NCBI GenBank assembly: GCA_041673345.1
Contig: JBAYXX010000005.1
Location: 5,929 to 69,928, forward strand
Reading direction: 5' to 3'
DNA from: Kiritimatiellia bacterium
GTDB taxonomy: Bacteria > Verrucomicrobiota > Kiritimatiellia > RFP12 > UBA1067
DNA length: 64,000 nt
Positions within the stretch are counted from its first letter, which is position 1. Each line of letters begins with the position of its first letter. The position numbers were made by a program, and so were the translations under genes. Below the pieces are notes generated by a model. It was given only the letters and a program-made list of their open reading frames with translations, was not told the DNA's origin and searched no databases. Shown in pieces: positions 16,937-52,338 of this stretch.

Positions 16937-16959
16937 AAACCGCACCAACGGTGCGGTTT
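16937..16959 (-). terminator. weak hairpin overlapping the stop codon of the GspK-like gene
   Basis: The minus strand reads TAAACCGCACC-GTTG-GGTGCGGTTT. The stem is 10 bp but only three T follow it. Confidence 0.25.
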
Positions 16960-19900
16960 ACTGCGTGAGTTTGCGCCACTCGGCAATGGTCCAGTTGCCG
17001 GAGTAGGCATCGCGGATCACAGTGACTGCGGCGCGCTGTTCAGCGAGAACCGTGGGGTTCTCAGATGCCTCTGTGCCTGGTGCCAGGGTCTGGGCGGCCA
17101 GAATGATAACAAATACATTCTGGCGGAAGGAGACCTTGTCGATGATCCCGCGTAGCACATCCTCGATGTAGTTGTGCATGTGGGTGTGGTTTTTTACATT
17201 GCTGTCATCTTGAATATTGTACATTTTGTTAGTTGCGAGTGCTGGCAGCATATCGGCAAAGCAACGCCAGCCAGTGTTGTACTGATCCTTGGTGAGTGCT
17301 TCGGCCCAAAGTTCGGGCCAGCTGTTATTGCTGGAAAGTTTTCCGTATGTGCCGGAAGCAAATGACCAAGCGTTTGTCCATCCAACCATCACATCGCTGA
17401 AAAGGATATCCAGAGTTGGTTTCAAGGTAGTGTTAGCCTGCACAAGGCCGCGGACCGGCTTATTGGGTTTGATTGTGAAAAAGTCCAGCAGGGAAGCGCC
17501 AGAGATCGTTTCAAAGCTGATGGTATCGGCGGGTTCATACTCAGGTGCAAGTTTTTCTTCACTGTATTCAGCTACCGGATTTATAGTAGAACCGTTTCCA
17601 CTTATACCATTTAAACTTTCGTTTTTTTTCAATTTCCTGAACTCGGTATAAATATGCCCGAGGTCTCCGATGGTTTGCAAAGGGGTATTGAAATGAATGA
17701 ACGGCAGCTCTTTTACGCCGGTGAGAATGTGAATATCCGGGTTGGTGTTTTCTGCGTCCCAATTTGTGTGGAACTCAAGCCAGCGATCTTCGTATCCATT
17801 GTCACGCGGATCAGCAACGTACATATTTGCGGGAGCGAGCCAACCCTTGACTGTGTCATGCAAAGGGTTCTTGTCTTTTTCGTGCATCACCGCTTCGTTA
17901 ACAATGCGGTCGGTAAAGGGGCGCGCGTTTGCGTCTGGAGCGAGCTCTGTTATAATGTCCGCACCAATTATTGTGGTTACTGGTCGAATCCAGATGGTGT
18001 TGGTTACGCTGTCCTCTCGTATGTAGCCAAGCGCATAGCAGTTTGTGACGATTTCGCGCTCCTCCGATTCAGGCGGGTAGCCCGGGGGGATTTGTTCGGT
18101 TATCTCCATAAAGGATATTGTTTGCTTAGGATAAACAGTCCAAAAGTATCCATTAACGTTATCAGGATCTGTCATTGCTGTCGTTTTTAAATCGAAGAAG
18201 GGCGAGTCTGGATCCAGCCAGTGTTTATCTTTTTCGGTCATGTTCCCCAGAGAGGGTTCGATGATTTGGGGTATGAGAGTGTTCTGTATTCCCGGGGAAT
18301 TACTAATGTAGTTGAATAACTCATTCCATTTGTTGAGTTTTTTGATGTCTTCAGTGGTCAGAAGCATGAAGTCATGGATAGCGCTGATGCTGTTTGTTGG
18401 CAGCATCAGAAAAAGTTCGTTTAAAGCCAGCTTAAGTCTTTTCGGTATGTAAAGAGGGGTGACCTGCTCGACTGTGTATTGATTAAAGAGGTTTGTATAT
18501 GTCGTAAACTGTGGCGGCTCTATGTCCGGAGATAGGCGCACAGCCGTAATTAAGTTGGTTGAAATAACAGCTGTAACAAAGTTTGAGCTGATCATGTAAT
18601 TTTGACTAGGTGTGCTGCCATAAATTATCGCTCTGGCTATATTATTTGTGTAATCAAGCGCTACAAGATCTCCGTTCTCATCAATAATACCGCCGAGCAG
18701 CGAGTTTGTGATTGTTCCGGTTAGAGAGTCTTCCCAGTACATGACCATGTACTCCTGATCATCCGTATATTGGCTGTAAATAAATTCGTTTGTTACACCT
18801 GGGTAGGCAATGTTGAGCCAGTGGTTGGTTTGTGTGATGCCTGATGTTTCCAGGTAAAAGGTCTTGTATAGCGGGGAGTTTGTCATTACAACAGTAAACC
18901 ACTCCTCTCCCAGTTCTGTTGTTTCGCGCCAGAGAGGGCTATTTATCATTGCTGGAGTGAACCAGTTGTCGCCCCTGTTTGTGATTTTCTGCCAGAGTGG
19001 ATTTCCGTCAAGATATGCCCAGCCAACTTCGTTTGTGTACTCCCGCGCCCAGGTTTCAAATAGAACCTTCATTACGATATTTGTGCCAAAGAAGTTTTCC
19101 AGCTCTCTACTTGAAAGGGGACGATTGGTTGTGGTGATAACATCCGCTTCATTGGTATAGATGCCGACATAACAGGCTGGGTCAACAAGCCTTGGATCTG
19201 ATCTTGAGTCGTTATAGTAAGAGTCAGGGGCAACTTCGTCTCTAAAAGGCGAGTTGGGGGCAAATGGATACCAGAGCTCAACTGCGACGGCGTAGTGGTT
19301 GCTGAGGTTCGGGTCAACATTGTAATAGTTGTAGTTTTTTAATTTATCTTGTGGTCCAATGTAATCGGTATTCCCTGCGCCATCATCAATATTAAAGAGT
19401 GATATCTTGCTGATCAGGGGCACATCTTCCACGGCAAAGTTGGCGCGCGTCGGCATCTCATATTCGATTAAGTTTGAAACATCTGGAATTCTGTCGTAGT
19501 CGATGAAGTTAGCGATCGACCAGGCGAGACGGTGGCCTTTGTCAAAGACGAGGTTTTCGCTCCCCATATCTTTGTTGCGGCATATCTCTGAGATGCACCA
19601 GGCTGGCAGCAACCACTCAGCTATAAATTGACCGTTATTTTTCCAGAGATCGATCGATGCTGGGGTGTAGTTTCTCAGGACATTGGTGATGCTGTTGATG
19701 TTGAATTTATTGTACGTGTATGTGTTTGTGCTCAACAGCTGATAGAGTACAGATAGCTTTTCGGAGTCGGGGAGGCTCAGGTTATTAAGGTCAACCCGCA
19801 GTTGCGACCCAAAGGCATCGCGGCCTAAAACATCCTCGGTACCTGGCCCGCTCATGGGAGCATAGTGTCGGAAGGTGTTGGGGTTGGGGTCGTAGGAGGT

Positions 19901-20695
19901 GTGGAAGAGGGGGGAGTCTGCTAATTCCACGTTGTTAGAAATCAATAAGTTGTTGATCTTTGTTGCTTTGGCATCCTCTAATGTGTTGGCGATCTCCTGT
20001 TGAGAGAAGTAAATACGTTGTTGCTTCGTATCTGTTGGCATTTTGGGTGCGACGTTTGCATCGATAGTGCCAGAACAGTCGAATATTGCGTAGGCTATAC
20101 GGGTGGGTTTGTTCTGTAACCTCTGCCTCAGGTCATCGTTAGTATGTATGTTTCCCGACAAAATCCAGCTACTGAGTAAAGCGTCGCTGCCTGTGGGAAG
20201 ATCGTTTGTTAAGGCCGGGGGTATCAGCTTTAGAGCTGACTCTGTCAATAGATTGACGCGATGTGTAAAAGTGCTAGTGAAATCTGCAATTGCCGGCGAG
20301 ACAAAAATGTGTTTGTACTGATAAGGAATACTCGGGTCAAATCCTAATTTCTCCAGACGTTCAGGGATGATCCATTGATTCACTGGGGCAAGGCGTTGGT
20401 ATATGTGGGGTTCATTAGGTCCGAAAGCCATCTCCTTGTTAAGATCAATATAGTTTGTGTATGTTAGTGAGTTCTCTATTTGTTGCATTGCAAGGGCAAG
20501 TGCGGTGTTGAGTGTGCTTTTAGCAGCTAACTGATCATGGCTTGCTGTTGAACTTTTCTTCTGCAGTCTAGCGGATAGCAGGAAAGTCATTACTAAAACT
20601 GAGATCACGGAGAGGATCCCCAGGGTGATCAATAGCGCAGAGCCCGACCTATAATCAGATCTGGAGCTTGAACAGCTATGTAGTGGCACTTGCAT
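16958..20695 (-). CDS. giant GspK-like minor pseudopilin (1245 aa)
   Basis: N-terminus RSGSALLITLGILSVISVLVMTFLL is a GspK-type anchor with no Glu+5. It is the last gene after H/I/J-like pseudopilins. C-terminus NVFVIILAAQTLAPG...AAVTVIRD is GspK-like. The body is about 4x canonical length. It has an internal duplication GDNWFTPAMINSPLW / GEEWFTVVMTNSPLY. Confidence 0.6.
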   Translation of the reverse strand: MQVPLHSCSSSRSDYRSGSALLITLGILSVISVLVMTFLLSARLQKKSSTASHDQLAAKSTLNTALALAMQQIENSLTYTNYIDLNKEMAFGPNEPHIYQRLAPVNQWIIPERLEKLGFDPSIPYQYKHIFVSPAIADFTSTFTHRVNLLTESALKLIPPALTNDLPTGSDALLSSWILSGNIHTNDDLRQRLQNKPTRIAYAIFDCSGTIDANVAPKMPTDTKQQRIYFSQQEIANTLEDAKATKINNLLISNNVELADSPLFHTSYDPNPNTFRHYAPMSGPGTEDVLGRDAFGSQLRVDLNNLSLPDSEKLSVLYQLLSTNTYTYNKFNINSITNVLRNYTPASIDLWKNNGQFIAEWLLPAWCISEICRNKDMGSENLVFDKGHRLAWSIANFIDYDRIPDVSNLIEYEMPTRANFAVEDVPLISKISLFNIDDGAGNTDYIGPQDKLKNYNYYNVDPNLSNHYAVAVELWYPFAPNSPFRDEVAPDSYYNDSRSDPRLVDPACYVGIYTNEADVITTTNRPLSSRELENFFGTNIVMKVLFETWAREYTNEVGWAYLDGNPLWQKITNRGDNWFTPAMINSPLWRETTELGEEWFTVVMTNSPLYKTFYLETSGITQTNHWLNIAYPGVTNEFIYSQYTDDQEYMVMYWEDSLTGTITNSLLGGIIDENGDLVALDYTNNIARAIIYGSTPSQNYMISSNFVTAVISTNLITAVRLSPDIEPPQFTTYTNLFNQYTVEQVTPLYIPKRLKLALNELFLMLPTNSISAIHDFMLLTTEDIKKLNKWNELFNYISNSPGIQNTLIPQIIEPSLGNMTEKDKHWLDPDSPFFDLKTTAMTDPDNVNGYFWTVYPKQTISFMEITEQIPPGYPPESEEREIVTNCYALGYIREDSVTNTIWIRPVTTIIGADIITELAPDANARPFTDRIVNEAVMHEKDKNPLHDTVKGWLAPANMYVADPRDNGYEDRWLEFHTNWDAENTNPDIHILTGVKELPFIHFNTPLQTIGDLGHIYTEFRKLKKNESLNGISGNGSTINPVAEYSEEKLAPEYEPADTISFETISGASLLDFFTIKPNKPVRGLVQANTTLKPTLDILFSDVMVGWTNAWSFASGTYGKLSSNNSWPELWAEALTKDQYNTGWRCFADMLPALATNKMYNIQDDSNVKNHTHMHNYIEDVLRGIIDKVSFRQNVFVIILAAQTLAPGTEASENPTVLAEQRAAVTVIRDAYSGNWTIAEWRKLTQ

Positions 20696-20767: not shown

Positions 20768-21622
20768 TTACTTTAGCCTTGTTCCTGATCCCGTCTTGAA
20801 TTGTATCATACGTGAGCTCTCAAATCCTAGATTTCGTGTTAATGCTCTGAGTTTAGCATCGCTACCGGCGACGGTCATTGCATTTACAAACTTGGGCCAA
20901 TCTTGGTCATTGTAGAGCTTTATCGCAAAATAGAGCTGATCCGGCAATACAGAAGCGTGAACTGTATGTTCTGTGCTGAGTATTCGATAAATATCGGGCA
21001 CCTCAACTGCGATATCAACAATCTCTACCCTAGCGGCCAGTAATGAAAACTCCCCTAGAGCTACCGACGGCTCAGGTTTGTTAAAAGGATCTATCACAAA
21101 ATTTATCATATTGTCGTGAAGTTCTAGCTCCCCCAGAACGTCCTCCCTCCTGGCTTCGAGCAAATCGCCAATATGTTGGGGATCATCAATATCGGCGTAA
21201 TCCAGAGGCAGTGTCCGTCGGAACAAAGCGCCTTGATAGTAGGTGTAAAAAACCGCGTCAAGCGCTGGGGCGGGATCATGGGGCGCATTGATTGAGCTGT
21301 GCTTGACAAAGGCCAGAAGGAGATTCAACTGGTTGGCATCTATGCTGCTGGCTGCAAAAAATGTAGGTGGTGCATTTGTTGACGTGCTGGTGTCAAAGGG
21401 CACTCCATTATCCGTAACAGCATAACTAAGGTCTTGCTCCAAGAGGTCAAGCACAATTCGTGCGACTATTTTTTCGTCTTGGTTTGTGTGCTTAGGGCTC
21501 CATATTTCGGTTGTCTTGTTAAGTGCCATGGTCAGCGCACCTAGAATAACTATGAAAAATGTCACTGCGCTAACTAGTTCAACCATGGTTAGGCCGGAGT
21601 TTGGCGAAAACGATCTTTTCAT
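20768..21622 (-). CDS. prepilin-type N-terminal cleavage/methylation domain protein (GspJ-position minor pseudopilin)
   Basis: 284 aa with class III signal NSG|LTMVELVSAVTFFIVILGAL and Glu at +5. Overlaps the upstream gene by 4 nt. Confidence 0.7.
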   Translation of the reverse strand: MKRSFSPNSGLTMVELVSAVTFFIVILGALTMALNKTTEIWSPKHTNQDEKIVARIVLDLLEQDLSYAVTDNGVPFDTSTSTNAPPTFFAASSIDANQLNLLLAFVKHSSINAPHDPAPALDAVFYTYYQGALFRRTLPLDYADIDDPQHIGDLLEARREDVLGELELHDNMINFVIDPFNKPEPSVALGEFSLLAARVEIVDIAVEVPDIYRILSTEHTVHASVLPDQLYFAIKLYNDQDWPKFVNAMTVAGSDAKLRALTRNLGFESSRMIQFKTGSGTRLK

Positions 21623-22197
21623 TGCAACCCCCCATGCTGAATCAGGGTTGTTGTATAAATCCGTTCGTCGCTTGAGTATGTGTCACCATCCGGTAGAATG
21701 TGTAACCTCACATGAAACATGTTTGGCTGACTGAAAACTGAAGACGTTCTGTCTGTTGCCATTTGGAGGGCGTAATATGGGTGCCAATTATTTAAATAGA
21801 TTGAGTCGTTCTTCATTGCGCGGACGTAATAAAAATTTTTGTCGCTGTCATTGTCATTGTCTTTGACTAAAACTATAAATATGTTGTTAGGCGTACTCAT
21901 CCCTGCAACCGGCGGGAATTCAAGGCTATTGTTTTCGATTGCTGCAAACCATTGATTAGTCCAGTTAGCTGGTTGTTTGCTAAAGCGTTGGTTGTATATT
22001 TCTAAAGTCTCAAAGAGAGCTGATGCTAGGTTGTCACAGCGGGCGGTGTTGTCGGCCTCCCGGACTGAATCCTGCCCGCCGCGCCCCAGCCCCATGATCC
22101 CGAGGAAGGCCACTCCGATAACCAATAGCACCAGCGCAATTTCAATTAAGGTGAAACCGTTGTTTGTCATATTTGCGTTATTGCGTGAGCGTCTCAT
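21619..22197 (-). CDS. prepilin-type N-terminal domain protein (GspI-position minor pseudopilin)
   Basis: 192 aa with signal NNG|FTLIEIALVLLVIGVAFLG. An alternative start is Met10 (22170). Confidence 0.7.
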   Translation of the reverse strand: MRRSRNNANMTNNGFTLIEIALVLLVIGVAFLGIMGLGRGGQDSVREADNTARCDNLASALFETLEIYNQRFSKQPANWTNQWFAAIENNSLEFPPVAGMSTPNNIFIVLVKDNDNDSDKNFYYVRAMKNDSIYLNNWHPYYALQMATDRTSSVFSQPNMFHVRLHILPDGDTYSSDERIYTTTLIQHGGLQ

Positions 22198-22217: not shown

Positions 22218-22847
22218 CTACTCTCCAACGATAGTTTCAACAGAGCCAGTTGTTAAGTTTATCCATAGATAGCGTCTTATAGGTTTACTGTCAAACAAAC
22301 GTTTTGTGTACAGCCCAATATAGTGACTTTGAGGTGAACTATCTTTTTCGTATAAAAGTGAGCCATCCGGACGGAATGCAAGGTGCGCTGCCTCGTGGTC
22401 AGGGAAGTACGGCTCAGTTTGTCCTTGAAGAGATGCTAGCGCACCAACGTAGATATGTTTTGGGAGCAGTTGGCGAGGAGCGGCTAAGGCTATCCCAAGT
22501 TGATTTATAGCTGTACCTTGATCATAGATCGGTACGTTTTGGGTTAAATCACTAATGAACACCTCTGTTGTGCTGGTTACATTAGAACAGATATATATTT
22601 GAAACTGCGGAGTGCTCATTCCATTAATGGGTGCATTGTTATAATCAAATAAAACGTATTGGCACTTGCTCTGGGCTAAAGCATGCGCTTGGTTTAATCC
22701 AGCTTTCATAATCCGAGCGGCCCCTGTGCAGGCGTGCATAGATGCCCATGAGTTGTAGCTTCCCAGTGCAACCATAAGTATAACACCAGTCACCGCCAAC
22801 ACGGCAAGCAATTCAAAGAGGGTGAAGGCGGAGCATCTATTTTTCAT
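22218..22847 (-). CDS. GspH/FimT-like minor pseudopilin
   Basis: ORF 22218..22889 trimmed to MKNRCSA|FTLFELLAVLAVTG (ATG at 22847, 11-nt overlap with the upstream gene). The segment after the helix, GSYNSWASMHACTGAARIMKAGLNQAHALA, resembles a GspH domain. Confidence 0.6.
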   Translation of the reverse strand: MKNRCSAFTLFELLAVLAVTGVILMVALGSYNSWASMHACTGAARIMKAGLNQAHALAQSKCQYVLFDYNNAPINGMSTPQFQIYICSNVTSTTEVFISDLTQNVPIYDQGTAINQLGIALAAPRQLLPKHIYVGALASLQGQTEPYFPDHEAAHLAFRPDGSLLYEKDSSPQSHYIGLYTKRLFDSKPIRRYLWINLTTGSVETIVGE

Positions 22848-23601
22848 GGTATTGCACCCCTGCTGAATAGATGTATTTTCTGCTCTCATTCGCCTCTGGT
22901 CCGCGCGAGAATGCGAACGCTGTTGTGTTGCTGACGCTCATGTAGAAGCTGGGAGCACCATCAAATTTTATTTCATGAGTAAACGTCGAAGCTGGATTAA
23001 GTCCCATGAAAACGATAAATTGATTACCCCAAGGGTCTTTGTAGCCGACAGAGTCAGAATTAGTGCGATTGTCAAGTCCAAGGAATTCGATTTGTTTTGG
23101 GTTAAAAGGGTTGGGCTGGTAGAGCGGACCAATCTTGGTCTCTGGATCAATTGTGTTTAAAGCGCGATATAGATAGTTGCCTGTAATGTATTTTGGCTCC
23201 GTGTTGGTCACAGTTACACTGAAACTGTCATTGCCGTAGCGGGAGATTATCACGGGTGTTATTATCTCGCCAGACATTAGAATGAAGGTGCTGTCCAACT
23301 GAAGTTGTGGGTCATCTGTCGTGTAGCCGCTGGCTTTAATAAGCTGCCCGGGCCAGAAACCATATACTGTTTTATATTTGATGACCGCCTGTGTCAGCAG
23401 CGTTGCCTGTATACTCGCTTTACGGCGTTCAGCTGCTTTTCTGACTGATTTCACGGTTGGTAACGATATCGCCAGTAGAACCGACATAACTCCGATCACG
23501 ATCACAAGCTCAATAATAGTAAAGCCGTTCCACGGCTTTACCAACAACGATTTCAGCGCTGAGGTTTTAGAGTTATTTGTGCTATGTGTCGGCTTTTTCA
23601 T
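22837..23601 (-). CDS. prepilin-type N-terminal domain pseudopilin
   Basis: 254 aa with a long basic leader, then WNG|FTIIELVIVIGVMSVLLAISLP with Glu+5. Confidence 0.7.
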   Translation of the reverse strand: MKKPTHSTNNSKTSALKSLLVKPWNGFTIIELVIVIGVMSVLLAISLPTVKSVRKAAERRKASIQATLLTQAVIKYKTVYGFWPGQLIKASGYTTDDPQLQLDSTFILMSGEIITPVIISRYGNDSFSVTVTNTEPKYITGNYLYRALNTIDPETKIGPLYQPNPFNPKQIEFLGLDNRTNSDSVGYKDPWGNQFIVFMGLNPASTFTHEIKFDGAPSFYMSVSNTTAFAFSRGPEANESRKYIYSAGVQYHEK

Positions 23602-23649
23602 AAAGAAATTATAGGATTCTCACATTTAAAACTTTTTGGCTTGACTGCC

Positions 23650-24312
23650 CTATTTTGTAGCAAAGGGACTCCAGCTCCCGAGCATCACATCGGTTACGGC
23701 ATTTTTATTGCCTGAACTATCGGTTGTTCTTGGCCCAGGGATGTATGTCCAAACTGCAACGGATTTGAAGACTATCTCCGATGCAGTATCGTTAGGAACA
23801 GCAGGGTCATCTCCAGGAACTTCAATCTGGTTGTCGCCATTGGAGTCGAACATCACTCTATATGCTCGGGTTGTGTCATCTGAATTTGAACTTAGTGACT
23901 TAAATGGATTTACCGGATGGCCTGAGTCACGGTTATATCTTGCGAATTCCATAAAGGGTATGCCTGCTGGATTAACTTCATTCATTAATGCTTCGTAATC
24001 TTTACTTACACCTTGAAGAACTTGAGCAAAGGCTTTGTCAATTATGAATCCTTGATCTTCACCACTCTTTATTATATTCAGGGCGTTGGTAGGCCAAAAA
24101 TGATAGTGCGCCTCATATTGTTTAAATGCGGTTTCGATGTTTTTGAGCTCTGTGTAGGCTATCGCCCGGCGACTGAATTTCTGGGCACGTTCCAGTGCAC
24201 CATAGAGTAGACCCAGTAGAACACTGATAATGGAGATAACAATCAGCATCTCGATCAGGGTGAACCCTGCGCAAATTTTTGATTTTTGATTTTTGATTTT
24301 TGATTTTTTCAT
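23650..24312 (-). CDS. prepilin-type pseudopilin (GspG-like N-terminus) with a heptamer-repeat-encoded leader
   Basis: 220 aa. Reads MKKSKIKNQKSKICAG|FTLIEMLIVISIISVLLGLLYGALERAQ. The leader is encoded by (AAAAATC)x4 on the coding strand. Confidence 0.75.
   Translation of the reverse strand: MKKSKIKNQKSKICAGFTLIEMLIVISIISVLLGLLYGALERAQKFSRRAIAYTELKNIETAFKQYEAHYHFWPTNALNIIKSGEDQGFIIDKAFAQVLQGVSKDYEALMNEVNPAGIPFMEFARYNRDSGHPVNPFKSLSSNSDDTTRAYRVMFDSNGDNQIEVPGDDPAVPNDTASEIVFKSVAVWTYIPGPRTTDSSGNKNAVTDVMLGSWSPFATK
24274..24308. repeat. heptanucleotide repeat inside the pseudopilin leader-peptide coding region
   Basis: The plus strand reads AATTTTT (GATTTTT)x4. On the coding strand this is (AAAAATC)x4 plus AAAAATT, starting 4 nt after the ATG at 24312. 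Confidence 0.9.
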
Positions 24313-24442
24313 TTTTAGTTTTGTTGTGGCGAGCCTCAGTGCGGCTCGCTGTTTGGTCTTCGCTGAGTGTGTAACCCCTTATTGGGCGCAAAGAAAAATT
24401 GATTGCTCTTTCCTAAAAGTTGTCTGTCGAGCTATATCTAAT

Positions 24443-24489
24443 GTAGGTCCGGTTTCCAACCGGACAGTCCGATTGGAAATCGGACCTAC
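24443..24489. repeat. REP-D inverted doublet (REPIN-like) between two pseudopilin genes
   Basis: GTAGGTCCGGTTTCCAACCGGAC-A-GTCCGATTGGAAATCGGACCTAC. The arms differ at two positions that are complementary within each arm. Confidence 0.85.
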
Positions 24490-24506
24490 GTTTATCGCTA
24501 CACATC

Positions 24507-25028
24507 CTACCTCTCAAAAAATATGTCATCCGATGTACTGGATGCGCCGCTGGTGGAGGGCGGCAACTCAGTATCTGCATCCGGGCCACAGGAGAAGAGC
24601 TCATATGCTTGCTTGTTCACATCCCTTCTGTAAACATAGGGTGTGCCCCAGGGGTCGTAGATGCTTGCGGGCATGGTGCAGCAGCTGCTGAAATGGTAAT
24701 TCGTTGATTCAGTGCCAATGTAGAAACGCGCCTGGCACTTATAATAAACATTTGAAAGATTCGCCAAGTAGTCAGTGCTCAACAGGTACTCTTTGGTTTT
24801 TCCTCCGTCAATTATATCCCCAGGATACTCGCCAAAGGTATTGTGCCAGTTGTCCATGGCCTGATGCCAGGCCGCGAGATCGGACTGCGCCCTGCGGATG
24901 TCGGAGATCGCGGAGATATGCTGGGCCAATCCGAGAACCATCGCCATCAGAACAGCGGCAATCGCGGTCACAAAGCCGAGCTCAATCAGCGTAACACCCC
25001 GACGGCTATATGGTGGTTTTCGTTTCAT
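24507..25028 (-). CDS. gspG: type II secretion major pseudopilin GspG-like
   Basis: 173 aa with signal RRG|VTLIELGFVTAIAAVLMAMV. C-terminal motif DPWGTPYVYRRD...YELFSCGPD matches the GspG DPWGxxY...SxGxDG signature. Confidence 0.7.
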   Translation of the reverse strand: MKRKPPYSRRGVTLIELGFVTAIAAVLMAMVLGLAQHISAISDIRRAQSDLAAWHQAMDNWHNTFGEYPGDIIDGGKTKEYLLSTDYLANLSNVYYKCQARFYIGTESTNYHFSSCCTMPASIYDPWGTPYVYRRDVNKQAYELFSCGPDADTELPPSTSGASSTSDDIFFER

Positions 25029-25320: not shown

Positions 25321-27057
25321 TTATTCTTCCATGCGCCCCGCAACCCGCACCACCTCGTCAACCGATGTGCGTCCCTCGACTACCCGCAACCAGCCATCAC
25401 GCCGCAGCGTGACCATACCCTCCTTAATGGCCAGATCCTTGATGATGTTAGAGGGGGCGCGCTCAATCACCAGCCCGCGGATGCCATCGGTCATAATCAT
25501 GACCTCATTGATGGCGCTGCGACCGCGGTAGCCTGTGAATCCGCAGGTGGGACAGCCATGCCCCTTGATGAAGATTGCGTTTTCAATTGTATCCGGATAA
25601 TAGCCTTTGATCTCGTCGTAAATAGTAGCAGGCGGGGTTGCAGCATCACAGCAGTTTTTACAGACTCGGCGCACCAGACGCTGGGCCACAATGCCCTCCA
25701 CGCACGAGGCCGTCAGATAGGGCTCAACGCCCATGTCGGTCAGACGGGCAATCGCGCTGGGAGCATCGTTGGTATGCAGCGTGCTGAGCACCAGATGGCC
25801 GGTGAGTGATGAACGTACCGCAATGTCCGCGGTCTCTGAGTCGCGAATCTCACCGATCAGGATCACATCCGGGTCGTGGCGCAGAATTGAGCGCAGGATG
25901 GAGGCAAAGGTCAAACCGATTTTGCTGTGTACCTGCACCTGGCTGATGCCGCCCATCTGATACTCAACCGGATCCTCAACTGTGATGATTTTGGTGCCAG
26001 CCTGATTCAGCCTGGCCAGCAGCGCATAGAGCGTGGTGGTTTTGCCTGAGCCTGTCGGGCCGGTCATCAGTACCACTCCGTGCGGCAGGTCGGTCAGCTT
26101 GGCGATCTTGGGTAATTGGTAGGGGGAGAGTCCCAGCAGATCCAGATCGACCTTGGTGGTGCCGCGGTTCAGAATACGCAGACAGCAGGTCTCGCCCCAA
26201 CCGGTTGGCAGCACTGAAACACGCAGGTCATAATCGTTGTTGCCGCAGTGCACGTTGATGCGTCCGTCATGGGGTTTGCGGTGCTCCGCAATGTCCATGT
26301 TGGCCATGATCTTGACTGCGGAGCTGACCGCATTGCGCAGTCTATCAACACCGGTGGGCAGAGGGATATGCTGCAGAATGCCGTCAATACGGTAACGCAG
26401 CCGCAGGGTGTCCTCATAGGGCTCAATATGAACGTCAGTGGCATCCATGCGGATGGCTTCGGCAATGATCAGGTTGATAAAGCGCACAACCCCGGTTTCC
26501 TGGGTCTTGACGGCGATGTCGGATTTTTCATCGCGCTCTTCGCGCATCTCCATGGCCTCGGCTTCGGCAATCAATTGATCAATGCTCTCCGCGCCTAGCC
26601 CATAGAAATGAGTCAGGGACATGCCGATATCGCGCTCAGGGCAGAGGATGAACTCAACACCAACATTGAGAATCATGCGCAGACCGTCAACTGTGGAGAG
26701 CGTGGGCACACGGCTGGCAGCCAAGAGCAGAACCCCCTCTTTATATGAGATTGGCACAATGCGGTGGCGCAGCGCGACCTTGGGGGTCACCATTTTAATG
26801 GCTTCGTCCTCGACCTTATAGTCGCCGATTGGGTGGTAGGGGATGTTACTGACATTTGAGAAGGTTTTCAGGAGCTCCTCTTCGTTGACAATGGCCTCCT
26901 CGCGCAGGAGGGTGTCGATGCCTTTGAGTGTCAACGAGGCGCGTCCTTGCAGGTCAGAGAGCTTATCAAATGTCAGCAGCCCTTTGTCAATCAATAGCTG
27001 CGAGGCTTCGGTGATCAGTTCATCGGTGTAATAGCGAATCTGTTTGTTGTTATCCAT
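25321..27057 (-). CDS. gspE: GspE/PilB-family secretion ATPase
   Basis: ORF 25321..27132 trimmed to MDNNKQIRYY (ATG at 27057), because the upstream RPRPRPR is translated hexamer repeat. Has a T2SSE_N domain, Walker [11 protein letters not shown], Asp box, Walker B VILIGEIRD and His box LSTLHTND. The tetracysteine motif is CKNC...CPTC. Confidence 0.9.
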   Translation of the reverse strand: MDNNKQIRYYTDELITEASQLLIDKGLLTFDKLSDLQGRASLTLKGIDTLLREEAIVNEEELLKTFSNVSNIPYHPIGDYKVEDEAIKMVTPKVALRHRIVPISYKEGVLLLAASRVPTLSTVDGLRMILNVGVEFILCPERDIGMSLTHFYGLGAESIDQLIAEAEAMEMREERDEKSDIAVKTQETGVVRFINLIIAEAIRMDATDVHIEPYEDTLRLRYRIDGILQHIPLPTGVDRLRNAVSSAVKIMANMDIAEHRKPHDGRINVHCGNNDYDLRVSVLPTGWGETCCLRILNRGTTKVDLDLLGLSPYQLPKIAKLTDLPHGVVLMTGPTGSGKTTTLYALLARLNQAGTKIITVEDPVEYQMGGISQVQVHSKIGLTFASILRSILRHDPDVILIGEIRDSETADIAVRSSLTGHLVLSTLHTNDAPSAIARLTDMGVEPYLTASCVEGIVAQRLVRRVCKNCCDAATPPATIYDEIKGYYPDTIENAIFIKGHGCPTCGFTGYRGRSAINEVMIMTDGIRGLVIERAPSNIIKDLAIKEGMVTLRRDGWLRVVEGRTSVDEVVRVAGRMEE

Positions 27058-27090
27058 AGTTTGGTTTATAGCTTGTAGTTTGTCTATATC

Positions 27091-27126
27091 TCGGGGTCGG
27101 GGTCGCGGTCGGAATCGGTATCGAAT
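27091..27126. repeat. hexamer tandem repeat (TCGNNN x6) upstream of gspE
   Basis: TCGGGG TCGGGG TCGCGG TCGGAA TCGGTA TCGAAT. Related arrays lie at 16006-16033 and 44301-44374. Confidence 0.8.
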
Positions 27127-27171
27127 AGTCAAGGAACGCGATTTACACCTCCGATGCAGCTGGCCTTTAAG

Positions 27172-27984
27172 TTACTTCTTATTGGGACCCTTTTGTTTGG
27201 CGGCAGCCTCTGCCGCGCGCTTAGCTTTGGCGGCATCTCTTTGGGCGGGAGTCATTTTAGCCTTGTTAGCGCCCGGCTGGTTGGCGCCCTTTTTTTTCAG
27301 GTCAGCTGGCGGAGGTGCTGCCGCCTCTTCCGGCGCGAGGGTGACCTTCTCTCCAAGCTTCAGCTGGCGGGTTGAGCCGTCGCCCAGGCGTAGCGTGGCG
27401 CTCTGCAGGCTAGCGTTCACAATGTTTACACCATGCACGTCGTTGCCCTTATCATAGAAAACCGTGGTTTTGTTGGCTGAGTCATAAAACATAGCAGCCG
27501 CAGTGCCGTCTGGACGCTTGATGAAACCCATGTAGGTCAGCACAGGGGTGATCATTGGCCTGCCGTCGGGGCCAAGGTTCTGGCCAGGGACATTCGCCTT
27601 TTTACGTAGGTGGGCAAAGGGATCCGTTTTCTTGGCATCTGGACTGGAGGTCATGCCTGCTGCCTCTTCTTGAGCCTTTTTAAGAGCCGCGATAAAGGCG
27701 GCGCGCTCAGCGGCATTGGTAAAAATCGCCTCAATAGTTGGGCGGAAAGGGTCCACCGGTATGATCAGAGAGGTGGATGCCAGCTGATTGGAGACAAAAT
27801 CAAGCAGTGTGATCTCCCAGGCTGGGCTTAATTCGGGAGTTTTTTTCTCGCCGACCTGAATCGGAGTGGGTGGTGTGCTGATTTTAAATCCGCAATAGAG
27901 CGTGATCGCAATGCAGATCACCACCATCCAGAGGCAGAAAGCCTTGGCGTTCAGGTGCATGATGCCTTTCCATAGAGTATTCAT
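27172..27984 (-). CDS. PilP/GspC-like periplasmic assembly protein with a Lys/Ala-rich C-terminal tail
   Basis: 270 aa with an N-terminal TM (AFCLWMVVICIAITLYCGF). A beta-rich segment, LTYMGFIKRPDGTAAAMFYDSANKTTVFYDKGNDVHGVNIV...LRLGDGSTRQLKLGEKV, resembles the PilP/GspC HR domain. The tail is KKKGANQPGANKAKMTPAQRDAAKAKRAAEAAAKQKGPNKK. Assignment rests on position and pattern only. Confidence 0.4.
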   Translation of the reverse strand: MNTLWKGIMHLNAKAFCLWMVVICIAITLYCGFKISTPPTPIQVGEKKTPELSPAWEITLLDFVSNQLASTSLIIPVDPFRPTIEAIFTNAAERAAFIAALKKAQEEAAGMTSSPDAKKTDPFAHLRKKANVPGQNLGPDGRPMITPVLTYMGFIKRPDGTAAAMFYDSANKTTVFYDKGNDVHGVNIVNASLQSATLRLGDGSTRQLKLGEKVTLAPEEAAAPPPADLKKKGANQPGANKAKMTPAQRDAAKAKRAAEAAAKQKGPNKK

Positions 27985-27992
27985 AGTTTTTA

Positions 27993-28024
27993 GGGGTTAG
28001 GGGTTAGGGGATAGGGGATAGGGG
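27993..28024 (+). repeat. heptamer microsatellite forming a canonical G-quadruplex motif
   Basis: GGGGTTAGGGGTTAGGGGATAGGGGATAGGGG gives five G4 runs separated by 3-nt loops. It fills the 47-nt spacer between the PilO-like stop (28032) and the PilP-like start (27984). Confidence 0.9.
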
Positions 28025-28031
28025 TTGGAGG

Positions 28032-28790
28032 TTAATCAAAAAGCAGTGCTGAGAGGATGGCTTTCATGCGCAGTTTGGCATCAAAGGTTGGGCCTGACTC
28101 AACACGGAGATTACGAAAAGCAAAGACCTGTCCCTCCTCGAACACCGATTGAAAACCGGTGTAGAGCCGTTCAAAATCAATATCGCACTCAATACGCACC
28201 GGGTATTCAGTGAAAACATACCGCCCATTTTTGTCCCTATGTTCAATCGGCGCGAGTGGATAGATTTCAACCAACCGAGTGATTTGACGGTCCAAGGTTA
28301 GGTCAGCGAGTTTTTCCACTGCTTTGAGCTGCAGCATACGCACGCGAACAGCTGCGCCGCTCTGCAGATCTTCATCCAATCCCAGCTCTTTGGGAACCAG
28401 CGGGATGTTAAGCTCCGCTGATTTCTCTTTGAGGCGCTGTCGAATTTCATAGAGTTGAACCTTGTAGTCAATACGGTTCACCCCAATATCCAGCAGAACC
28501 GACTGATCCTCAAACGAGCTTAGGCGGGCGTTGATGCGAGCCCACTCGTTGGAGAGTTGCTGCAGATTCTGCAGCTCATGCTCCACAACGGCCTGCATAC
28601 TCTCAATTGAGTGGCTCGCGAATTTGCTGCTTGTGAGTTGTTCGCGCACACGTTTATTATCGGCCTCCATGTTGCGCTGCGGGATGAAAACGAATCTGAT
28701 GGTGCAGAAAAGCCCGATCGCGATGAACAGCATAATAAAGATCACCTGCGCACGTTCAGTTTTAAGAATACTCCAATCTGGTTTGATCAT
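28032..28790 (-). CDS. PilO/GspM-like inner-membrane assembly protein
   Basis: 252 aa with a single N-terminal TM (VIFIMLFIAIGLFCTIRFVFI), a coiled-coil region and a C-terminal alpha/beta domain. It overlaps the upstream PilM/N-like gene by 4 nt. Confidence 0.45.
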   Translation of the reverse strand: MIKPDWSILKTERAQVIFIMLFIAIGLFCTIRFVFIPQRNMEADNKRVREQLTSSKFASHSIESMQAVVEHELQNLQQLSNEWARINARLSSFEDQSVLLDIGVNRIDYKVQLYEIRQRLKEKSAELNIPLVPKELGLDEDLQSGAAVRVRMLQLKAVEKLADLTLDRQITRLVEIYPLAPIEHRDKNGRYVFTEYPVRIECDIDFERLYTGFQSVFEEGQVFAFRNLRVESGPTFDAKLRMKAILSALLFD

Positions 28791-30529
28791 GGGCGGTTTA
28801 CCTCGATTTCAATTACAAAACGCCGGAAATCCGGTATCTGCGCTGCTTCCAGCTCTGGAATGCCGACCGGTGCTAAAACCTGGTCATCGCTGCGCAGGTC
28901 AACCCGGGCGATTTCAGGGGAGCTTTTAAGGCGGCTGATCATGTCGCGTACTGTTTTAAGGCTTGGGTTGGGGGTGTATCCCTCAACAATAAAAATTCGA
29001 TCCATTTGTTCTACGATATCTTTTTTTGCCAGTGGCATCTCTTTTTTGCCGGTTGGGGCTGGGGCGGCGGCTACTGGGCGCGTTGCCCTGAAAAGTGAGA
29101 AGGGGTTGCGTGCCGCAGCCGCTACTGGCAGATCTTTGTCAGGCTTATCCTGCTCTTCAGGGTTGTAAATCTTCTCATCACAGAACAGGGTGACCCAGTC
29201 ATCCGGATCAATCGAGGCGCATACTAACGAAAAGATGTCGCGTGCGATCGGCCCGTTCATCAAAAGCCGCCCCAAGGGCAGGGAGTTGGTCAGCACCTGC
29301 GACTCCATCAGCTTGAGTTGCGTGATATGCTGGTCAATCTGCTCCCGGGTACGCAGACGCGACCGTTCAGCAGCGAGCAGGGCACCGTCACGCTGCAATA
29401 AAAAGACCCCTGTGGCGCTGTAAACTCCCATGCCTATGAAAATGAAGATTGCGGCAGCACCCCACCAAGGTTTCTTGGCGCGGAACACGACCTCGTCTTT
29501 CAAGTCCTCCGGCAGAAGTGAAAGCTTTACAATCGCGGCATCTAGCGAGCAGAGTGCCAGACCATAGGCAACATCAAACTGCCCCACATATTTCTGGTAA
29601 GAGGGGGGGATGTTGGGTAGCTCTTTTGCCTCCATAATCTGCATCGGGAGCTTTGTGAGCAGATGCTCCTTAAATCCCTTCAGCCGCGTACCCCCGCCTG
29701 AGATCACCAGCTGGTGAATCTGAAACTGTCGTTCAGAGTACTGACTTCGGAAAACACCCAGGCAGGCGTTGAACTGCGAGAGCCAGCGGTCAGCAGCAGC
29801 GCGTAAGGGAATGCAGCAGGCATCGTCATCCCGTAGTCCGCAGTCCGACTGCTTGCGCACTTCGGCCTGTGTTGCAGGCAGCCCTGTCTCGTGCGAGATC
29901 GCGTCAGTAAAGAGCTTGCCGCCAACACCGATAGTGCGCGCAAAGAGTAACCCGGTTTTATTGCCAATTGCCACATCGCTCTGATGGTGTCCGATATTGA
30001 CGTAACACCACGGCTCCTCATGCTCCCCGGCAAAGGACTCCAGGGCGTTGAAGAGCGCGACCGGGGCGGAGATCAGCTCTGCTGCCCGTAGGTTCATCTG
30101 GGTGGTTTCGTGCAACGCTTTTTCAATTGCGGCAGGGCGCGCCATTGACATTATATAGCGCCGCATACCAGGTTCAAATTCAAGCTCGAAGTCAGCTACG
30201 TCATAGGCCATGAGGTCGCCGGCCATCTCATTGAACTGAGCGATATCCATATCAGCAACTTGTCGTGCAGTGCGTGGGTCGTTGTGGGGGATTTTACCAC
30301 CCTGAAACACAGTTTGGGTTCCGTCCAGAGCGACATTGCAGAAGGCTTTGGCAAGGCTGTGTTTCCCGACCCACTGACGAATCATGTCGGTCGGATTTTC
30401 CTCCTCTGTGGGCAATGCGAATGACTCAACCCGCGCGACATACGGCTTGTTGGCGCGCATCTGCAGCCAGAGCGCACGTAGCGTGTGCGCGCCAGTGTCA
30501 ATCGCTATAATTTGTTTCTGTTTGGCCAT
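28787..30529 (-). CDS. PilM-PilN fusion / GspL-like assembly protein
   Basis: 580 aa. The N-terminal actin-like ATPase fold starts IIAIDTGAHTLRAL and includes VISGGGTRLKG. A TM (WWGAAAIFIFIGMGVYSATGVFLL) and a periplasmic PilN-like C-terminal domain follow. Confidence 0.65.
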   Translation of the reverse strand: MAKQKQIIAIDTGAHTLRALWLQMRANKPYVARVESFALPTEEENPTDMIRQWVGKHSLAKAFCNVALDGTQTVFQGGKIPHNDPRTARQVADMDIAQFNEMAGDLMAYDVADFELEFEPGMRRYIMSMARPAAIEKALHETTQMNLRAAELISAPVALFNALESFAGEHEEPWCYVNIGHHQSDVAIGNKTGLLFARTIGVGGKLFTDAISHETGLPATQAEVRKQSDCGLRDDDACCIPLRAAADRWLSQFNACLGVFRSQYSERQFQIHQLVISGGGTRLKGFKEHLLTKLPMQIMEAKELPNIPPSYQKYVGQFDVAYGLALCSLDAAIVKLSLLPEDLKDEVVFRAKKPWWGAAAIFIFIGMGVYSATGVFLLQRDGALLAAERSRLRTREQIDQHITQLKLMESQVLTNSLPLGRLLMNGPIARDIFSLVCASIDPDDWVTLFCDEKIYNPEEQDKPDKDLPVAAAARNPFSLFRATRPVAAAPAPTGKKEMPLAKKDIVEQMDRIFIVEGYTPNPSLKTVRDMISRLKSSPEIARVDLRSDDQVLAPVGIPELEAAQIPDFRRFVIEIEVNRP

Positions 30530-30561
30530 AAAAAATCGGTTTCGCTAGTCAGTGGTTCAAG

Positions 30562-30603
30562 AGTCAGGAGTCAGGAGTCAGAAGTCAGAATTCAGGAGTC
30601 ACT
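30562..30603. repeat. heptamer tandem repeat (AGTCAGG-like x6) at the secretin / pilM-like junction
   Basis: AGTCAGG AGTCAGG AGTCAGA AGTCAGA ATTCAGG AGTCACT. It overlaps the secretin stop codon at 30599-30601. Confidence 0.85.
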
Positions 30604-32809: not shown

Positions 32810-32875
32810 GTGAGTTTCCTGTTAGTTTATTTTTACAACCACTCAGTGGTTACAAAGAGGAGGTTAAAAGTGTTG

Positions 32876-33739
32876 TCAATTGCGTTTGTCGCCCGGGTGG
32901 ATGGTTCCCTCCCACCAGAGCGGGCCTACAAAAACATTGCCGGCATAGGCGACGTTAAGGGTGATGAAATTTCTGGTGGGTTTTGCGCCTTTGGCGGCAT
33001 ATCCCATAATTTTCATATCTTTAAAATGATGGTAGCAGCGGACAATGGGAATACGGGAGGCACTGTAGGGCATTTTCTCGCCTTTGATCACGTGGGCGGT
33101 GTCACCATAACGCATTTGGGCATGCTTATATTGTGACATAGTTTTTATGTTCGAGGTAACATCTTTCGGGAATTGTGAATTGCTTACCCAGTCCGAAGGC
33201 GCAGTAGCTGCTGAGAATTCATATAAATAGCTACAGGCCGCAATAGCTCTGGAGTTTTCTGGTCTACTGGTGTTTTTTTCGTTGTCCCAGAAGGAAGAGT
33301 CGTTGTCAATTTCGTTCTTACCAACACCATCACTACTTGTCAATGCATCTGGGCGGGGCCTGTCAAAGCCTTTGTTGATATCAGCTGTGCAGACATACAT
33401 TGCACGGTCATCCACATACTCAGGGTAGAGAGTTGAAAGCCAGTCCGGGGTTTCGTTGTCGTGCTCGGCGCGGTAGATGGTCAGAGCGACACCGAACTGC
33501 CGCAGGTTGGATTTGCAGTTGGTTTGGCGGGCACTCTTATAGCTGGACTGCACTGACACCACCAGTGCCGACATCAGAATACTGAGGATCACAATCACCA
33601 CCAAAAGCTCGACCAAGGTGAAGCCCTTGGTTGCGCTAAAGCGTGTTTGGCATGAACTTTGCAGATAATAACAATGCCTGGCACCAGCTGTGAGACGGTG
33701 CGGATTTTTTCGGTTTTTGGTTTGGTCACCCATAGACAT
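32876..33739 (-). CDS. prepilin-type N-terminal cleavage/methylation domain protein (PVC-style pilin-like, long leader)
   Basis: 287 aa with signal TKG|FTLVELLVVIVILSILMSALV and Glu+5, after a leader of about 37 aa. It is separated from the secretin gene by 66 nt. Confidence 0.7.
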   Translation of the reverse strand: MSMGDQTKNRKNPHRLTAGARHCYYLQSSCQTRFSATKGFTLVELLVVIVILSILMSALVVSVQSSYKSARQTNCKSNLRQFGVALTIYRAEHDNETPDWLSTLYPEYVDDRAMYVCTADINKGFDRPRPDALTSSDGVGKNEIDNDSSFWDNEKNTSRPENSRAIAACSYLYEFSAATAPSDWVSNSQFPKDVTSNIKTMSQYKHAQMRYGDTAHVIKGEKMPYSASRIPIVRCYHHFKDMKIMGYAAKGAKPTRNFITLNVAYAGNVFVGPLWWEGTIHPGDKRN

Positions 33740-52334: not shown

Positions 52335-52338
52335 AAAA

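What the first reader, a model, noticed from the sequence alone, without database searches (positions are those of the whole stretch)
16958..20695. GspK-like tip pseudopilin expanded to 1245 aa
The N-terminal anchor (SGSALLITLGILSVISVLVMTFLL, no Glu+5) is GspK-like, and so are the C-terminal strands (NVFVIILAAQTLAPG...AAVTVIRDAYSGNWTI). About 1100 residues lie between them, against about 250 in canonical GspK. The insert is Asn/Thr/Tyr-rich and contains a local duplication (GDNWFTPAMINSPLW / GEEWFTVVMTNSPLY). GspK caps the pseudopilus, so a fourfold-enlarged cap could be an adhesin or a substrate-recognition module displayed at the fibre tip.
Basis: partly seen in the sequence, partly recalled or inferred. 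Interest (0 to 1): 0.6.

Follow-up and report, generated by a model that had tools for sequence, protein, structure and literature searches.

The report
Giant GspK-type filament cap protein
This is a real, conserved 1245-residue version of the small protein that caps secretion and pilus filaments, enlarged about four-fold by unannotated domains; it probably gives an uncultured Kiritimatiellia bacterium a built-in binding head on its filament tip, though that role is untested.

Summary
The ORF is real: minus strand, 16958-20695, 1245 aa. It is the last gene of a conserved operon: secretin, PilM/GspL-like, GspE, GspG, five Glu5 prepilins, then this gene.

About 45 full-length homologues (30-64% identity) from independent Kiritimatiellia/Lentisphaerae assemblies rule out an assembly fusion. 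A profile of the C-terminal module finds 922 cluster representatives. Complete members are 650-900 aa or 1000-1400 aa, never the length of canonical GspK.

Evidence for GspK kinship:
- The N-terminal anchor is GspK-class (hhalign 95%, Gly-1, no Glu5).
- Residues 992-1100 weakly carry the GspK alpha-domain signature (hhalign E 1e-4 to 3e-3; 0 of 120 column shuffles reach it).
- The last 60 residues, predicted as three strands, are the best-conserved segment.

Evidence that falls short:
- Curated GspK models match only the anchor.
- Foldseek of two AlphaFold models (pLDDT about 73) found nothing significant, GspK included.

About 900 residues are inserted between helix alpha-1 and the alpha-domain signature. 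They comprise a family-wide N-module and a clade-specific part of about 425 aa with [ST]N-punctuated beta strands.

Best reading: a GspK/PilK-class cap and initiator pilin with a built-in head. This is a larger version of ComZ, CpaL and cyanobacterial PilX. The head's function is inferred only.

This scan has reported such giants before on other DNA, including a 1253-aa Kiritimatiellia relative.

The parts
16958..20695 (-). Whole ORF, 1245 aa (P0001): giant GspK-class cap pilin
   Evidence: full-length homologues
20447..20695 (-). Residues 1-83: 18-aa basic leader ending in Gly, hydrophobic anchor without Glu5, and the rest of helix alpha-1
   Evidence: NF037980 and TIGR02600 match here only. 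hhalign to canonical GspK: 95% probability. AlphaFold helix at model 2-31 = residues 47-76.
19187..20446 (-). Residues 84-503: N-module shared by the whole family, including the 650-900 aa forms. Residues 213-317 are variable and modelled at low confidence.
   Evidence: BLAST/HMM blocks 138-211 and 318-503 are present in short relatives. pLDDT < 50 at model 168-220.
17906..19186 (-). Residues 504-930: part specific to the long (1000-1400 aa) forms. It runs helical bundle, [ST]N-punctuated beta module, helices, beta-rich domain.
   Evidence: Absent from the 650-900 aa relatives. Secondary structure.
18866..18973 (-). Residues 575-610: the duplicated motif GDNWFTPAMINSPLW / GEEWFTVVMTNSPLY
18371..18910 (-). 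Residues 596-775: segments ending in [ST]N, modal spacing 8-9 aa across the family, copy number varying between homologues; predicted as about 12 beta strands
16958..17905 (-). Residues 931-1245: C-module, always at the extreme C-terminus of family members
   Evidence: Profile A4 finds 922 representatives at E <= 0.001, with the match at the C-terminal end. Alignment.
17396..17722 (-). Residues 992-1100: GspK alpha-domain-like signature (ELPFIHFNxPxxSIGDLGHIY ... LLDFFT ... RGLVQANT..L)
   Evidence: hhalign E 0.0025-0.003, 1.3e-4 with 0 of 120 shuffles, 3.4e-4
16964..17122 (-). Residues 1192-1244: three long antiparallel strands, the best-conserved segment; proposed pilin sheet with a cis donor strand
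   Evidence: AlphaFold strands at model 1147-1199. Mean identity 67% against 37-44% elsewhere.
20768..21622 (-). 284-aa Glu5 prepilin directly upstream (J position)
   Evidence: N-terminus SGLTMVEL. Weak TIGR02599 match. A same-position prepilin occurs in homologous operons.
21619..22197 (-). 192-aa Glu5 prepilin (I/H-like), overlapping the next gene by 4 nt
22218..25028 (-). Three more Glu5 minor prepilins (22218-22889, 22837-23601, 23650-24312) and the GspG-like major pseudopilin (24507-25028)
   Evidence: N_methyl and T2SSG matches; N-termini
25321..33739 (-). Machine genes: GspE/PilB ATPase with MshEN domain, two small bitopic proteins, a 580-aa PilM/GspL-like protein, secretin, and a DUF1559 prepilin
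   Evidence: the same order occurs in L037 and L038

Best explanation
P0001 is the Glu5-less GspK/PilK-class minor pilin of a PVC-type type IV filament machine with type II secretion features.

Steps drawn from established knowledge of the family:
- A prepilin peptidase cuts after Gly18.
- The hydrophobic alpha-1 helix joins the I- and J-like prepilins encoded just upstream, forming the complex that starts filament assembly.
- Because the subunit lacks Glu5, nothing can be added above it, so it stays at the distal tip.

Shown here:
- The pilin parts are split between the two ends of the chain: alpha-1 at the N-terminus, and a GspK-like alpha-domain signature plus three highly conserved strands at the C-terminus.
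- About 900 residues lie between them. They comprise a family-wide N-module and, in this clade, a further roughly 425 aa rich in [ST]N-ended beta strands.

Inferred:
- The conserved last strands complete the pilin sheet in cis, as described for GspK, ComZ and CpaL.
- The inserted mass is a built-in head that replaces a separate PilY1-type tip protein and binds a ligand. The ligand is most likely a surface or polysaccharide outside the cell, less likely a secretion substrate or the secretin vestibule.
For: - Anchor: NF037980 matches residues 17-86. hhalign to 21 canonical GspKs of the phylum gives 95% probability, E 1.8e-8. Gly-1 and a non-Glu +5 are seen in all homologues whose anchor is present.
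- Operon position: the gene is last, after GspG and five Glu5 prepilins, with GspE, PilM-like and secretin genes. The same order holds in L037 and L038, and prepilins lie upstream in most other loci.
- Prepilin peptidase: one is present in the genome.
- C-module: it aligns colinearly with the GspK alpha-domain signature at E 1.3e-4 to 3e-3. Column-shuffled controls score 12.5 +/- 1.9 against 37.8 observed, and 0 of 120 reach it.
- Conservation: the last 60 residues are the best-conserved part and are modelled as three strands following a helical region.
- Model quality: pLDDT 73 and pTM 0.68 for 1200 residues suggest one packed body.
- Real gene: 44 aligned full-length homologues have 87 invariant columns spread along the chain.
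- Literature frame: GspK has an alpha-domain inserted in its pilin sheet, and ComZ has a beta-solenoid inserted (PMC6561018). The C-terminal strand of GspK-class proteins licenses tip assembly, and CpaL tolerates loss of its roughly 470-aa middle (PMC13533445). Cyanobacterial PilX carries a bulky inserted domain (PMC13759059).
- Composition: Asn/Thr/Tyr/Trp are about twice the local baseline. The number of [ST]N strand units varies between homologues.
Against: - Curated models: NF037980 scores 20 bits against a cut-off of 130, over the anchor only. Pfam T2SSK and T2SSK_1st do not match P0001. Of the 34 relatives scanned separately, one matches T2SSK_1st, at E 0.057.
- Structure: Foldseek of the full model and of residues 800-1245 gave no PDB hit with E <= 0.001 and no GspK chain in the top 50.
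- C-terminal strands: their similarity to GspK is not significant on its own (10 of 120 shuffles).
- Anchor-only similarity could in principle reflect a shared membrane-helix type.
- No binding domain was recognised anywhere in the insert.
- No GspF/PilC platform gene lies in the operon or on the contig, so the machine as encoded here is incomplete.
- Whether a 137-kDa cap can pass a secretin is unknown.
Confidence: 0.68

Rival explanations
1. Same cap-pilin identity, but the machine is a true type II secretion system. Its pseudopilus stays in the periplasm, and the giant head works inside the secretin vestibule as an enlarged piston face, plug or substrate dock, not as a surface adhesin.
For: - The major subunit matches T2SSG/GspG (PF08334 E 5e-7; TIGR01710 E 1.2e-10).
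- The ATPase scores slightly better as GspE than as PilB.
- There is no retraction ATPase in the operon.
- The alpha-domain signature is a T2SS-type GspK feature (PMC13533445).
- NCBI names a 59%-identical homologue 'type II secretion system protein'.
- Large LamG-bearing proteins that could be substrates lie nearby.
Against: - The assembly genes look like PilM/N/O/P rather than GspC/L/M.
- A PilT-like ATPase lies in the same window.
- Variable [ST]N repeat number and Asn/Thr/Tyr/Trp richness fit an exposed surface better.
- No known T2SS has a cap of this size.
Confidence: 0.25
2. Not a pilin. The protein is a bitopic inner-membrane protein with a large periplasmic domain that merely shares a pilin-like signal anchor. 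It serves the machine as an accessory or assembly factor, or has an unrelated role.
For: - Only the first roughly 70 residues match curated pilin models.
- Foldseek finds no pilin fold.
- No recognised pilin globular domain is detected.
Against: - The conserved Gly-1 and basic leader are typical of class III signal peptides.
- The K position in the operon is conserved across the family.
- There is a colinear alpha-domain signature with shuffle support.
- The extreme C-terminal strands are the most conserved part, as expected for a pilin sheet or donor strand.
Confidence: 0.06
3. Assembly or annotation artefact: two genes fused by a missed stop or frameshift.
For: The public gene call starts at Met219 (1027 aa).
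Against: - About 45 homologues of 1180-1420 aa from independent assemblies align over 98-100% of the length.
- Invariant residues are spread along the whole chain.
- The N-terminal 218 residues that the public call drops are conserved.
Confidence: 0.01

Closest known systems
GspK / XcpX / EpsK, the T2SS tip minor pseudopilin (NCBIfam NF037980; Pfam PF21687 + PF03934; PDB 3CI0 chain K, 5VTM)
   Same: - Class III leader ending in Gly, hydrophobic alpha-1 and no Glu5.
- Last gene after G-H-I-J-like pilins.
- A short alpha-domain signature, then three C-terminal strands, in the same order.
   Different: - 1245 aa against roughly 320-450 aa.
- About 900 extra residues lie between alpha-1 and the alpha-domain signature.
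- Scores far below the curated cut-offs.
- No Foldseek match to the solved structures.
- The same genome also has a canonical 413-aa GspK next to a GspL-like gene on another contig.
ComZ (Thermus thermophilus), CpaL (Caulobacter Tad pilus) and cyanobacterial PilX: GspK/PilK-class tip pilins with a large inserted module (PMC6561018, PMC13533445, PMC13759059)
   Same: A cap pilin whose pilin fold is interrupted by a bulky module, with a conserved C-terminal strand returning to the pilin sheet. Each is proposed to act as a built-in tip adhesin or receptor in systems without PilY1.
   Different: - The insert here is about twice as large: about 900 aa, against about 380 aa in ComZ and about 470 aa in CpaL.
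- There is no detectable sequence or Foldseek similarity to beta-solenoid or ice-binding folds.
TIGR02600, Verru_Chthon cassette protein A (about 1300 aa, Verrucomicrobiota; uncharacterised)
   Same: Similar size, and the same kind of Glu5-less anchor. 23 of 34 family members match its first roughly 60 positions, best E 5e-12. It is encoded next to prepilin genes.
   Different: - Only the anchor is alike: hhalign E 1.5e-6 over 69 columns, with the C-terminus at E 0.71.
- P0001 scores 18.7 bits against a cut-off of 332.
- In the cassette the giant gene comes first and the prepilins follow. Here it comes last.
PilC/PilY1 and MshQ: large separate tip proteins of type IVa and MSHA pili
   Same: A large tip-associated mass encoded at the end of a minor-pilin cluster. 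The ATPase here has an MshEN domain, and the PilM/N-like protein is a fusion, as in MSHA systems. The MSHA comparison is from memory and was not tested.
   Different: PilY1 and MshQ are not pilins and donate their C-terminal strand in trans (PMC13533445). P0001 has its own pilin anchor. There is no PilY1 beta-propeller or other Pfam match.

Membership tests
GspK / T2SS minor pseudopilin K | Class III signal peptide: short basic leader ending in Gly, followed by about 20 hydrophobic residues | tested here: met
   The leader MQVPLHSCSSSRSDYRSG is followed by 22 hydrophobic residues. The R-x-G-[AS]-[TA]-L motif is conserved in homologues.
GspK / T2SS minor pseudopilin K | No Glu at +5, unlike all other pilins of the system | tested here: met
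   Position +5 is Ile here and Val/Ile in homologues. The six other prepilins of the operon all have Glu5.
GspK / T2SS minor pseudopilin K | Score above the curated cut-off of NF037980 or Pfam T2SSK / T2SSK_1st | tested here: not met
   NF037980 scores 20.3 bits against a cut-off of 130, over positions 2-73 only. Pfam gives no hit for P0001. Only 1 of 34 relatives matches T2SSK_1st, at E 0.057.
GspK / T2SS minor pseudopilin K | Alpha-domain inserted in the pilin sheet | tested here: inconclusive
   There is colinear profile-profile similarity over 75-87 columns. E is 1.3e-4 to 3e-3, probability 10-54%, and 0 of 120 shuffles reach the score. HMM-to-sequence scores are at most 11 bits. A helical region at 979-1185 precedes the last three strands in the model.
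GspK / T2SS minor pseudopilin K | Fold similarity to solved GspK (3CI0 chain K, 5VTM chain X) | tested here: not met
   Foldseek found no hit with E <= 0.001 and no GspK chain in the top 50, for the full model or for residues 800-1245. The test is weak because the pilin core is split by about 900 residues. No positive control could be run.
GspK / T2SS minor pseudopilin K | Encoded after GspG-H-I-J-type genes in an operon with GspE and a secretin | tested here: met
   conserved in L037, L038 and other loci
GspK / T2SS minor pseudopilin K | Forms the tip complex with GspI and GspJ | not testable with these tools
TIGR02600 Verru_Chthon cassette protein A | Full-length match above 332 bits | tested here: not met
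   P0001 scores 18.7 bits over positions 1-59. hhalign to three true members aligns the anchor only.
TIGR02600 Verru_Chthon cassette protein A | Cassette order: giant gene first, then prepilins B, C, D | tested here: not met
   In G123 the A gene is followed by 179-aa and 336+-aa Glu5 prepilins. In the window the giant gene is last.
Cap pilins with an inserted module (ComZ / CpaL / cyanobacterial PilX type) | Pilin anchor at the N-terminus, large insert, and a conserved C-terminal strand that returns to the pilin sheet | tested here: inconclusive
   The anchor and the most-conserved C-terminal strands are shown.
PilC / PilY1 tip adhesins | C-terminal beta-propeller (Pfam Neisseria_PilC) and no pilin anchor | tested here: not met
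   There is no Pfam match, and P0001 has a pilin anchor.

The most novel reading that the evidence does not exclude
The protein defines a PVC-wide class of type IV filament machines with three unusual properties:
- The tip complex, not an accessory adhesin, carries a head of 130-170 kDa.
- The extra mass may sit on either the K-like or the J-like subunit. Sister operons have a roughly 750-aa K-like protein next to a 650-970-aa J-like prepilin.
- The operon carries no platform protein of its own.

The [ST]N-punctuated, length-variable beta module would then be a new ligand-binding or spacer fold. It might be used to capture polysaccharide particles or to gate an unusually wide secretin.
Probability: 0.15. 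Interest if true: 0.7.

Novelty: new variant of a known kind. Interest (0 to 1): 0.45.

Why it matters
Cap pilins decide what a type IV filament or pseudopilus touches first. How tips are built and how they acquire new functions is an active question (PMC13533445, PMC8179133).

This family shows that the K-class cap can grow to about four times its usual size while keeping its two ends. It is abundant in uncultured Kiritimatiellia and Lentisphaerae from guts, rumen, digesters and sediments: 922 cluster representatives at 50% identity. No domain database describes it beyond the anchor.

If the head binds polysaccharide or host surfaces, that would help explain how these glycan-degrading anaerobes attach to or feed on particles. 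If it works inside the secretin, it would be a new way of running type II secretion.

The practical value is limited for now. The organism is uncultured, the head has no recognisable fold, and the general idea of modular or expanded tip pilins is already published.

Tried and rejected
- **Sequence searches of the PDB.** The single sequence found nothing. The 44-sequence profile found only chance hits at E >= 0.24.
- **Pfam.** No family matched P0001.
- **Foldseek.** The full model against PDB and BFVD, and the model of residues 800-1245 against PDB, gave nothing at E <= 0.001. The best hits were lipocalins, cystatins and unnamed phage proteins at E 0.03-0.2, which I do not interpret.
- **HMM-to-sequence comparison.** C-module against canonical GspK, both directions, scored at most 11 bits. 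Many of the stronger alignments fell on the same motif, but the result is not significant alone.
- **C-terminal strands alone against the GspK C-terminus.** Not better than shuffles (10 of 120).
- **Membership in TIGR02600.** Rejected: anchor only, and the opposite gene order.
- **Fission or fusion with the J-like protein.** I tested whether the middle of the long form corresponds to the giant J-like prepilins of short-form operons. There is no similarity (E >= 0.1). The inverse size relation is only partial (r = -0.54, 18 related loci).
- **Bridging to canonical GspK through weak hits of the representative search.** Not possible, because only the best 150 of 922 hits are listed.
- **Literature searches.** Searches for giant GspK in Kiritimatiellia or PVC bacteria and for the Verru_Chthon cassette found nothing specific.


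Full report
**1. Observation**

The stretch 16958-20695 holds one open frame of 1245 codons on the minus strand; the plus strand is full of stops.

- After an 18-residue leader ending in Gly come 22 hydrophobic residues. Position +5 is Ile. The six other prepilins of the operon all read G/A-[FL]T[LIM][IVF]E, with Glu at +5.
- The two motif copies lie at 575-589 and 596-610 and share 9 of 15 residues. They share only 28 of 45 bases, so the duplication is old. Only the first copy is conserved family-wide.
- The protein has about twice the local frequency of Asn, Thr, Tyr and Trp.
- The public gene call starts at Met219 and so drops the anchor (P0002). Conservation of the anchor in homologues shows that the long form is right.

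**2. Context**

The gene closes a minus-strand operon. In order, it encodes:

1. a DUF1559 prepilin;
2. a secretin;
3. a 580-aa PilM/GspL-like protein;
4. two small bitopic proteins;
5. a GspE/PilB ATPase with an MshEN domain;
6. a GspG-like major pseudopilin;
7. five Glu5 minor prepilins;
8. P0001.

The same order, with nearly the same gene sizes, is found around a 37%-identical homologue (L037) and around a 777-aa relative (L038). Most other loci with enough flank show prepilin genes directly upstream.

The genome has a prepilin peptidase. It has no GspF/PilC gene on this contig, and the syntenic operons also lack one.

**3. A real gene family**

A word-indexed search found 82 relatives. About 45 of them are full length (1180-1420 aa, 30-59% identity, 98-100% coverage) and come from Kiritimatiellia and Lentisphaerae assemblies. 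A further scan of named genomes found 47 loci, the closest at 64% identity over the last 446 residues.

The 44-sequence alignment has 87 invariant columns spread along the chain. An assembly fusion is therefore excluded.

Shorter relatives (650-1130 aa) keep residues 1-503 and 931-1245 but lack about 504-930. A profile of the C-terminal module alone finds 922 cluster representatives at E <= 0.001. The module always sits at the extreme C-terminus. Complete proteins fall into two size classes, 600-900 aa and 1000-1400 aa, and none has the size of canonical GspK.

**4. Is it GspK-like?**

The N-terminus clearly is.

- NF037980 matches residues 17-86.
- An HMM of canonical GspKs from the phylum hits it.
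- hhalign of the family against 21 such GspKs gives 95% probability, E 1.8e-8.

The rest is less clear.

- Residues 992-1100 align colinearly with the GspK segment 'ppY..N.pL.s..EL..I ... l.dlfTv ... g.iNvNtA..vL'. The E-value is 0.0025-0.003, 1.3e-4 or 3.4e-4, depending on settings.
- In the shuffle test the observed score is 37.8. The 120 column-shuffled controls give 12.5 +/- 1.9 and never reach it.
- HMM-to-sequence scores are tiny, although many of the stronger alignments fall on the same motif.
- The final three strands resemble the GspK end by eye. Tested alone, they are not significant.
- Curated models and Pfam see nothing beyond the anchor.

Two AlphaFold models were made. One covers residues 46-1245 (pLDDT 73, pTM 0.68). 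The other covers 800-1245 (pLDDT 72). Foldseek against the PDB gave no hit at E <= 0.001 and no GspK chain in the top 50.

I treat this as a failed membership test of limited power, for three reasons:

- the presumed pilin core is split by about 900 residues;
- no positive control could be run.

**5. Anatomy** (residues; secondary structure)

| Residues | Feature |
|---|---|
| 1-18 | leader |
| 19-76 | alpha-1 |
| 84-503 | family-wide N-module, mixed alpha/beta; 213-317 variable and poorly modelled |
| 504-619 | helical bundle holding the duplicated motif |
| 620-745 | about 12 strands |
| 752-806 | helices |
| 811-975 | beta-rich domain |
| 979-1185 | helical region with the GspK-like signature |
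| 1192-1244 | three long strands |

Across 596-775 the chain is cut into segments ending in [ST]N. The modal spacing is 8-9 residues across the family, and the number of units differs between homologues.

The last 60 residues are the best-conserved part: 67% mean identity to the query, against 37-44% elsewhere.

**6. Comparison with known systems**

- **GspK** itself is a pilin with an alpha-domain inserted in its sheet.
- **ComZ** has a roughly 380-residue beta-solenoid inserted before the last strand and is argued to sit at the tip (PMC6561018).
- **A 2026 study** shows that the extreme C-terminal strand, supplied in cis by GspK-class proteins or in trans by PilC/PilY1, completes the PilK sheet and licenses tip-complex assembly. 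In that study CpaL (about 600 aa) still works without its roughly 470-residue middle (PMC13533445).
- **Cyanobacterial PilX** proteins also carry a bulky insert and are proposed to replace PilY1 (PMC13759059).
- **Modular pilins** are widespread. The most extreme multi-domain case in one InterPro survey was 860 residues long (PMC8179133).
- **TIGR02600** (about 1300 aa) is the only named family of similar size with this anchor. It shares only the anchor and has the opposite gene order.

P0001 therefore fits a known design, at about twice the size of the studied examples and with an insert of unknown fold.

**7. Mechanism**

- Shown: the anchor type, the lack of Glu5, the operon position, the family conservation, the split conserved ends, and the weak alpha-domain signature.
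- From established knowledge of the family: cleavage by the prepilin peptidase, assembly with the I- and J-like partners, and a capping position.
- Inferred: the conserved C-terminal strands act as the cis donor strand. The inserted roughly 900 residues form a head that binds something.

I favour an exposed binding head at about 45%, because of its composition and its variable repeat number. I put a periplasmic T2SS-type piston or dock at about 25-30%. Nothing tested here separates these two.

**8. Novelty and score**

This is a new variant of a known kind. It is unannotated, abundant and unusually large, but the principle is published.

This scan has reported similar giants many times: 59 notes in at least 57 genomes. 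One is a 1253-aa Kiritimatiellia relative. These are unchecked AI notes, and I did not use them as evidence.

Interest: 0.45.

Noticed in passing
window 25321-33739 and the whole contig: The operon has no GspF/PilC platform gene, and PF00482 finds none on this contig. Several lie on other contigs. The syntenic operons L037 and L038 lack one too.
   Followed up: partly
window 50616-55133: Two GspE/PilB-type ATPases with MshEN domains and one PilT-like ATPase sit side by side, flanked by GatB and a thioredoxin-reductase-like gene. No pilin or platform genes lie beside them.
   Followed up: no
window 16958-20041 (public gene call): The protein collection holds this gene as a 1027-aa product starting at Met219. 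That call removes the pilin anchor and would hide its nature from annotation.
   Followed up: yes
own genome: G000 C88 16252-16845, C47 24177-24377, C26 43490-43663 (L001, L003, L004): The genome has three more ORFs with a GspK-type anchor. One is a canonical 413-aa GspK next to a GspL-like gene. The others are a 484-aa ORF and a 1037-aa giant that shares only the anchor with P0001.
   Followed up: partly
L038 7560-9929; L074 1697-4618; L078; L076, L081-L083: In operons whose K-like protein is short (680-860 aa), the upstream Glu5 prepilin in the J position is often itself 650-970 aa. The K and J sizes are inversely related (r = -0.54, 18 related loci). The big J-likes show no sequence similarity to the middle of the long K form.
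   Followed up: partly
window 18371-18910 (residues 596-775): The chain is divided into segments that end in Thr/Ser-Asn. The modal spacing is 8-9 residues across the family, and the number of units differs between homologues. The TN dipeptide is 2.7-fold over-represented in the whole protein.
   Followed up: partly
window 16958-20695: The gene's G+C is 46.7%, against 52.2% for the window.
   Followed up: no
L039 and L095 (G123 contig 11): A true TIGR02600 protein (1301 aa) is followed by 179-aa and 336+-aa Glu5 prepilins. It is preceded by a PEP-CTERM protein and an ECF sigma factor. The giant gene therefore comes first in that cassette.
   Followed up: yes
L064, L072, L075, L076, L081, L086: Family members occur on contigs whose records are labelled Armatimonadota, Pseudomonadota or Akkermansia. 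This may be mis-binning or transfer; it was not examined.
   Followed up: no
window 12253-14433 and 59159-63013: Two large proteins with concanavalin/LamG-type domains (726 aa and 1284 aa) lie in the same window. They are possible exported proteins.
   Followed up: no
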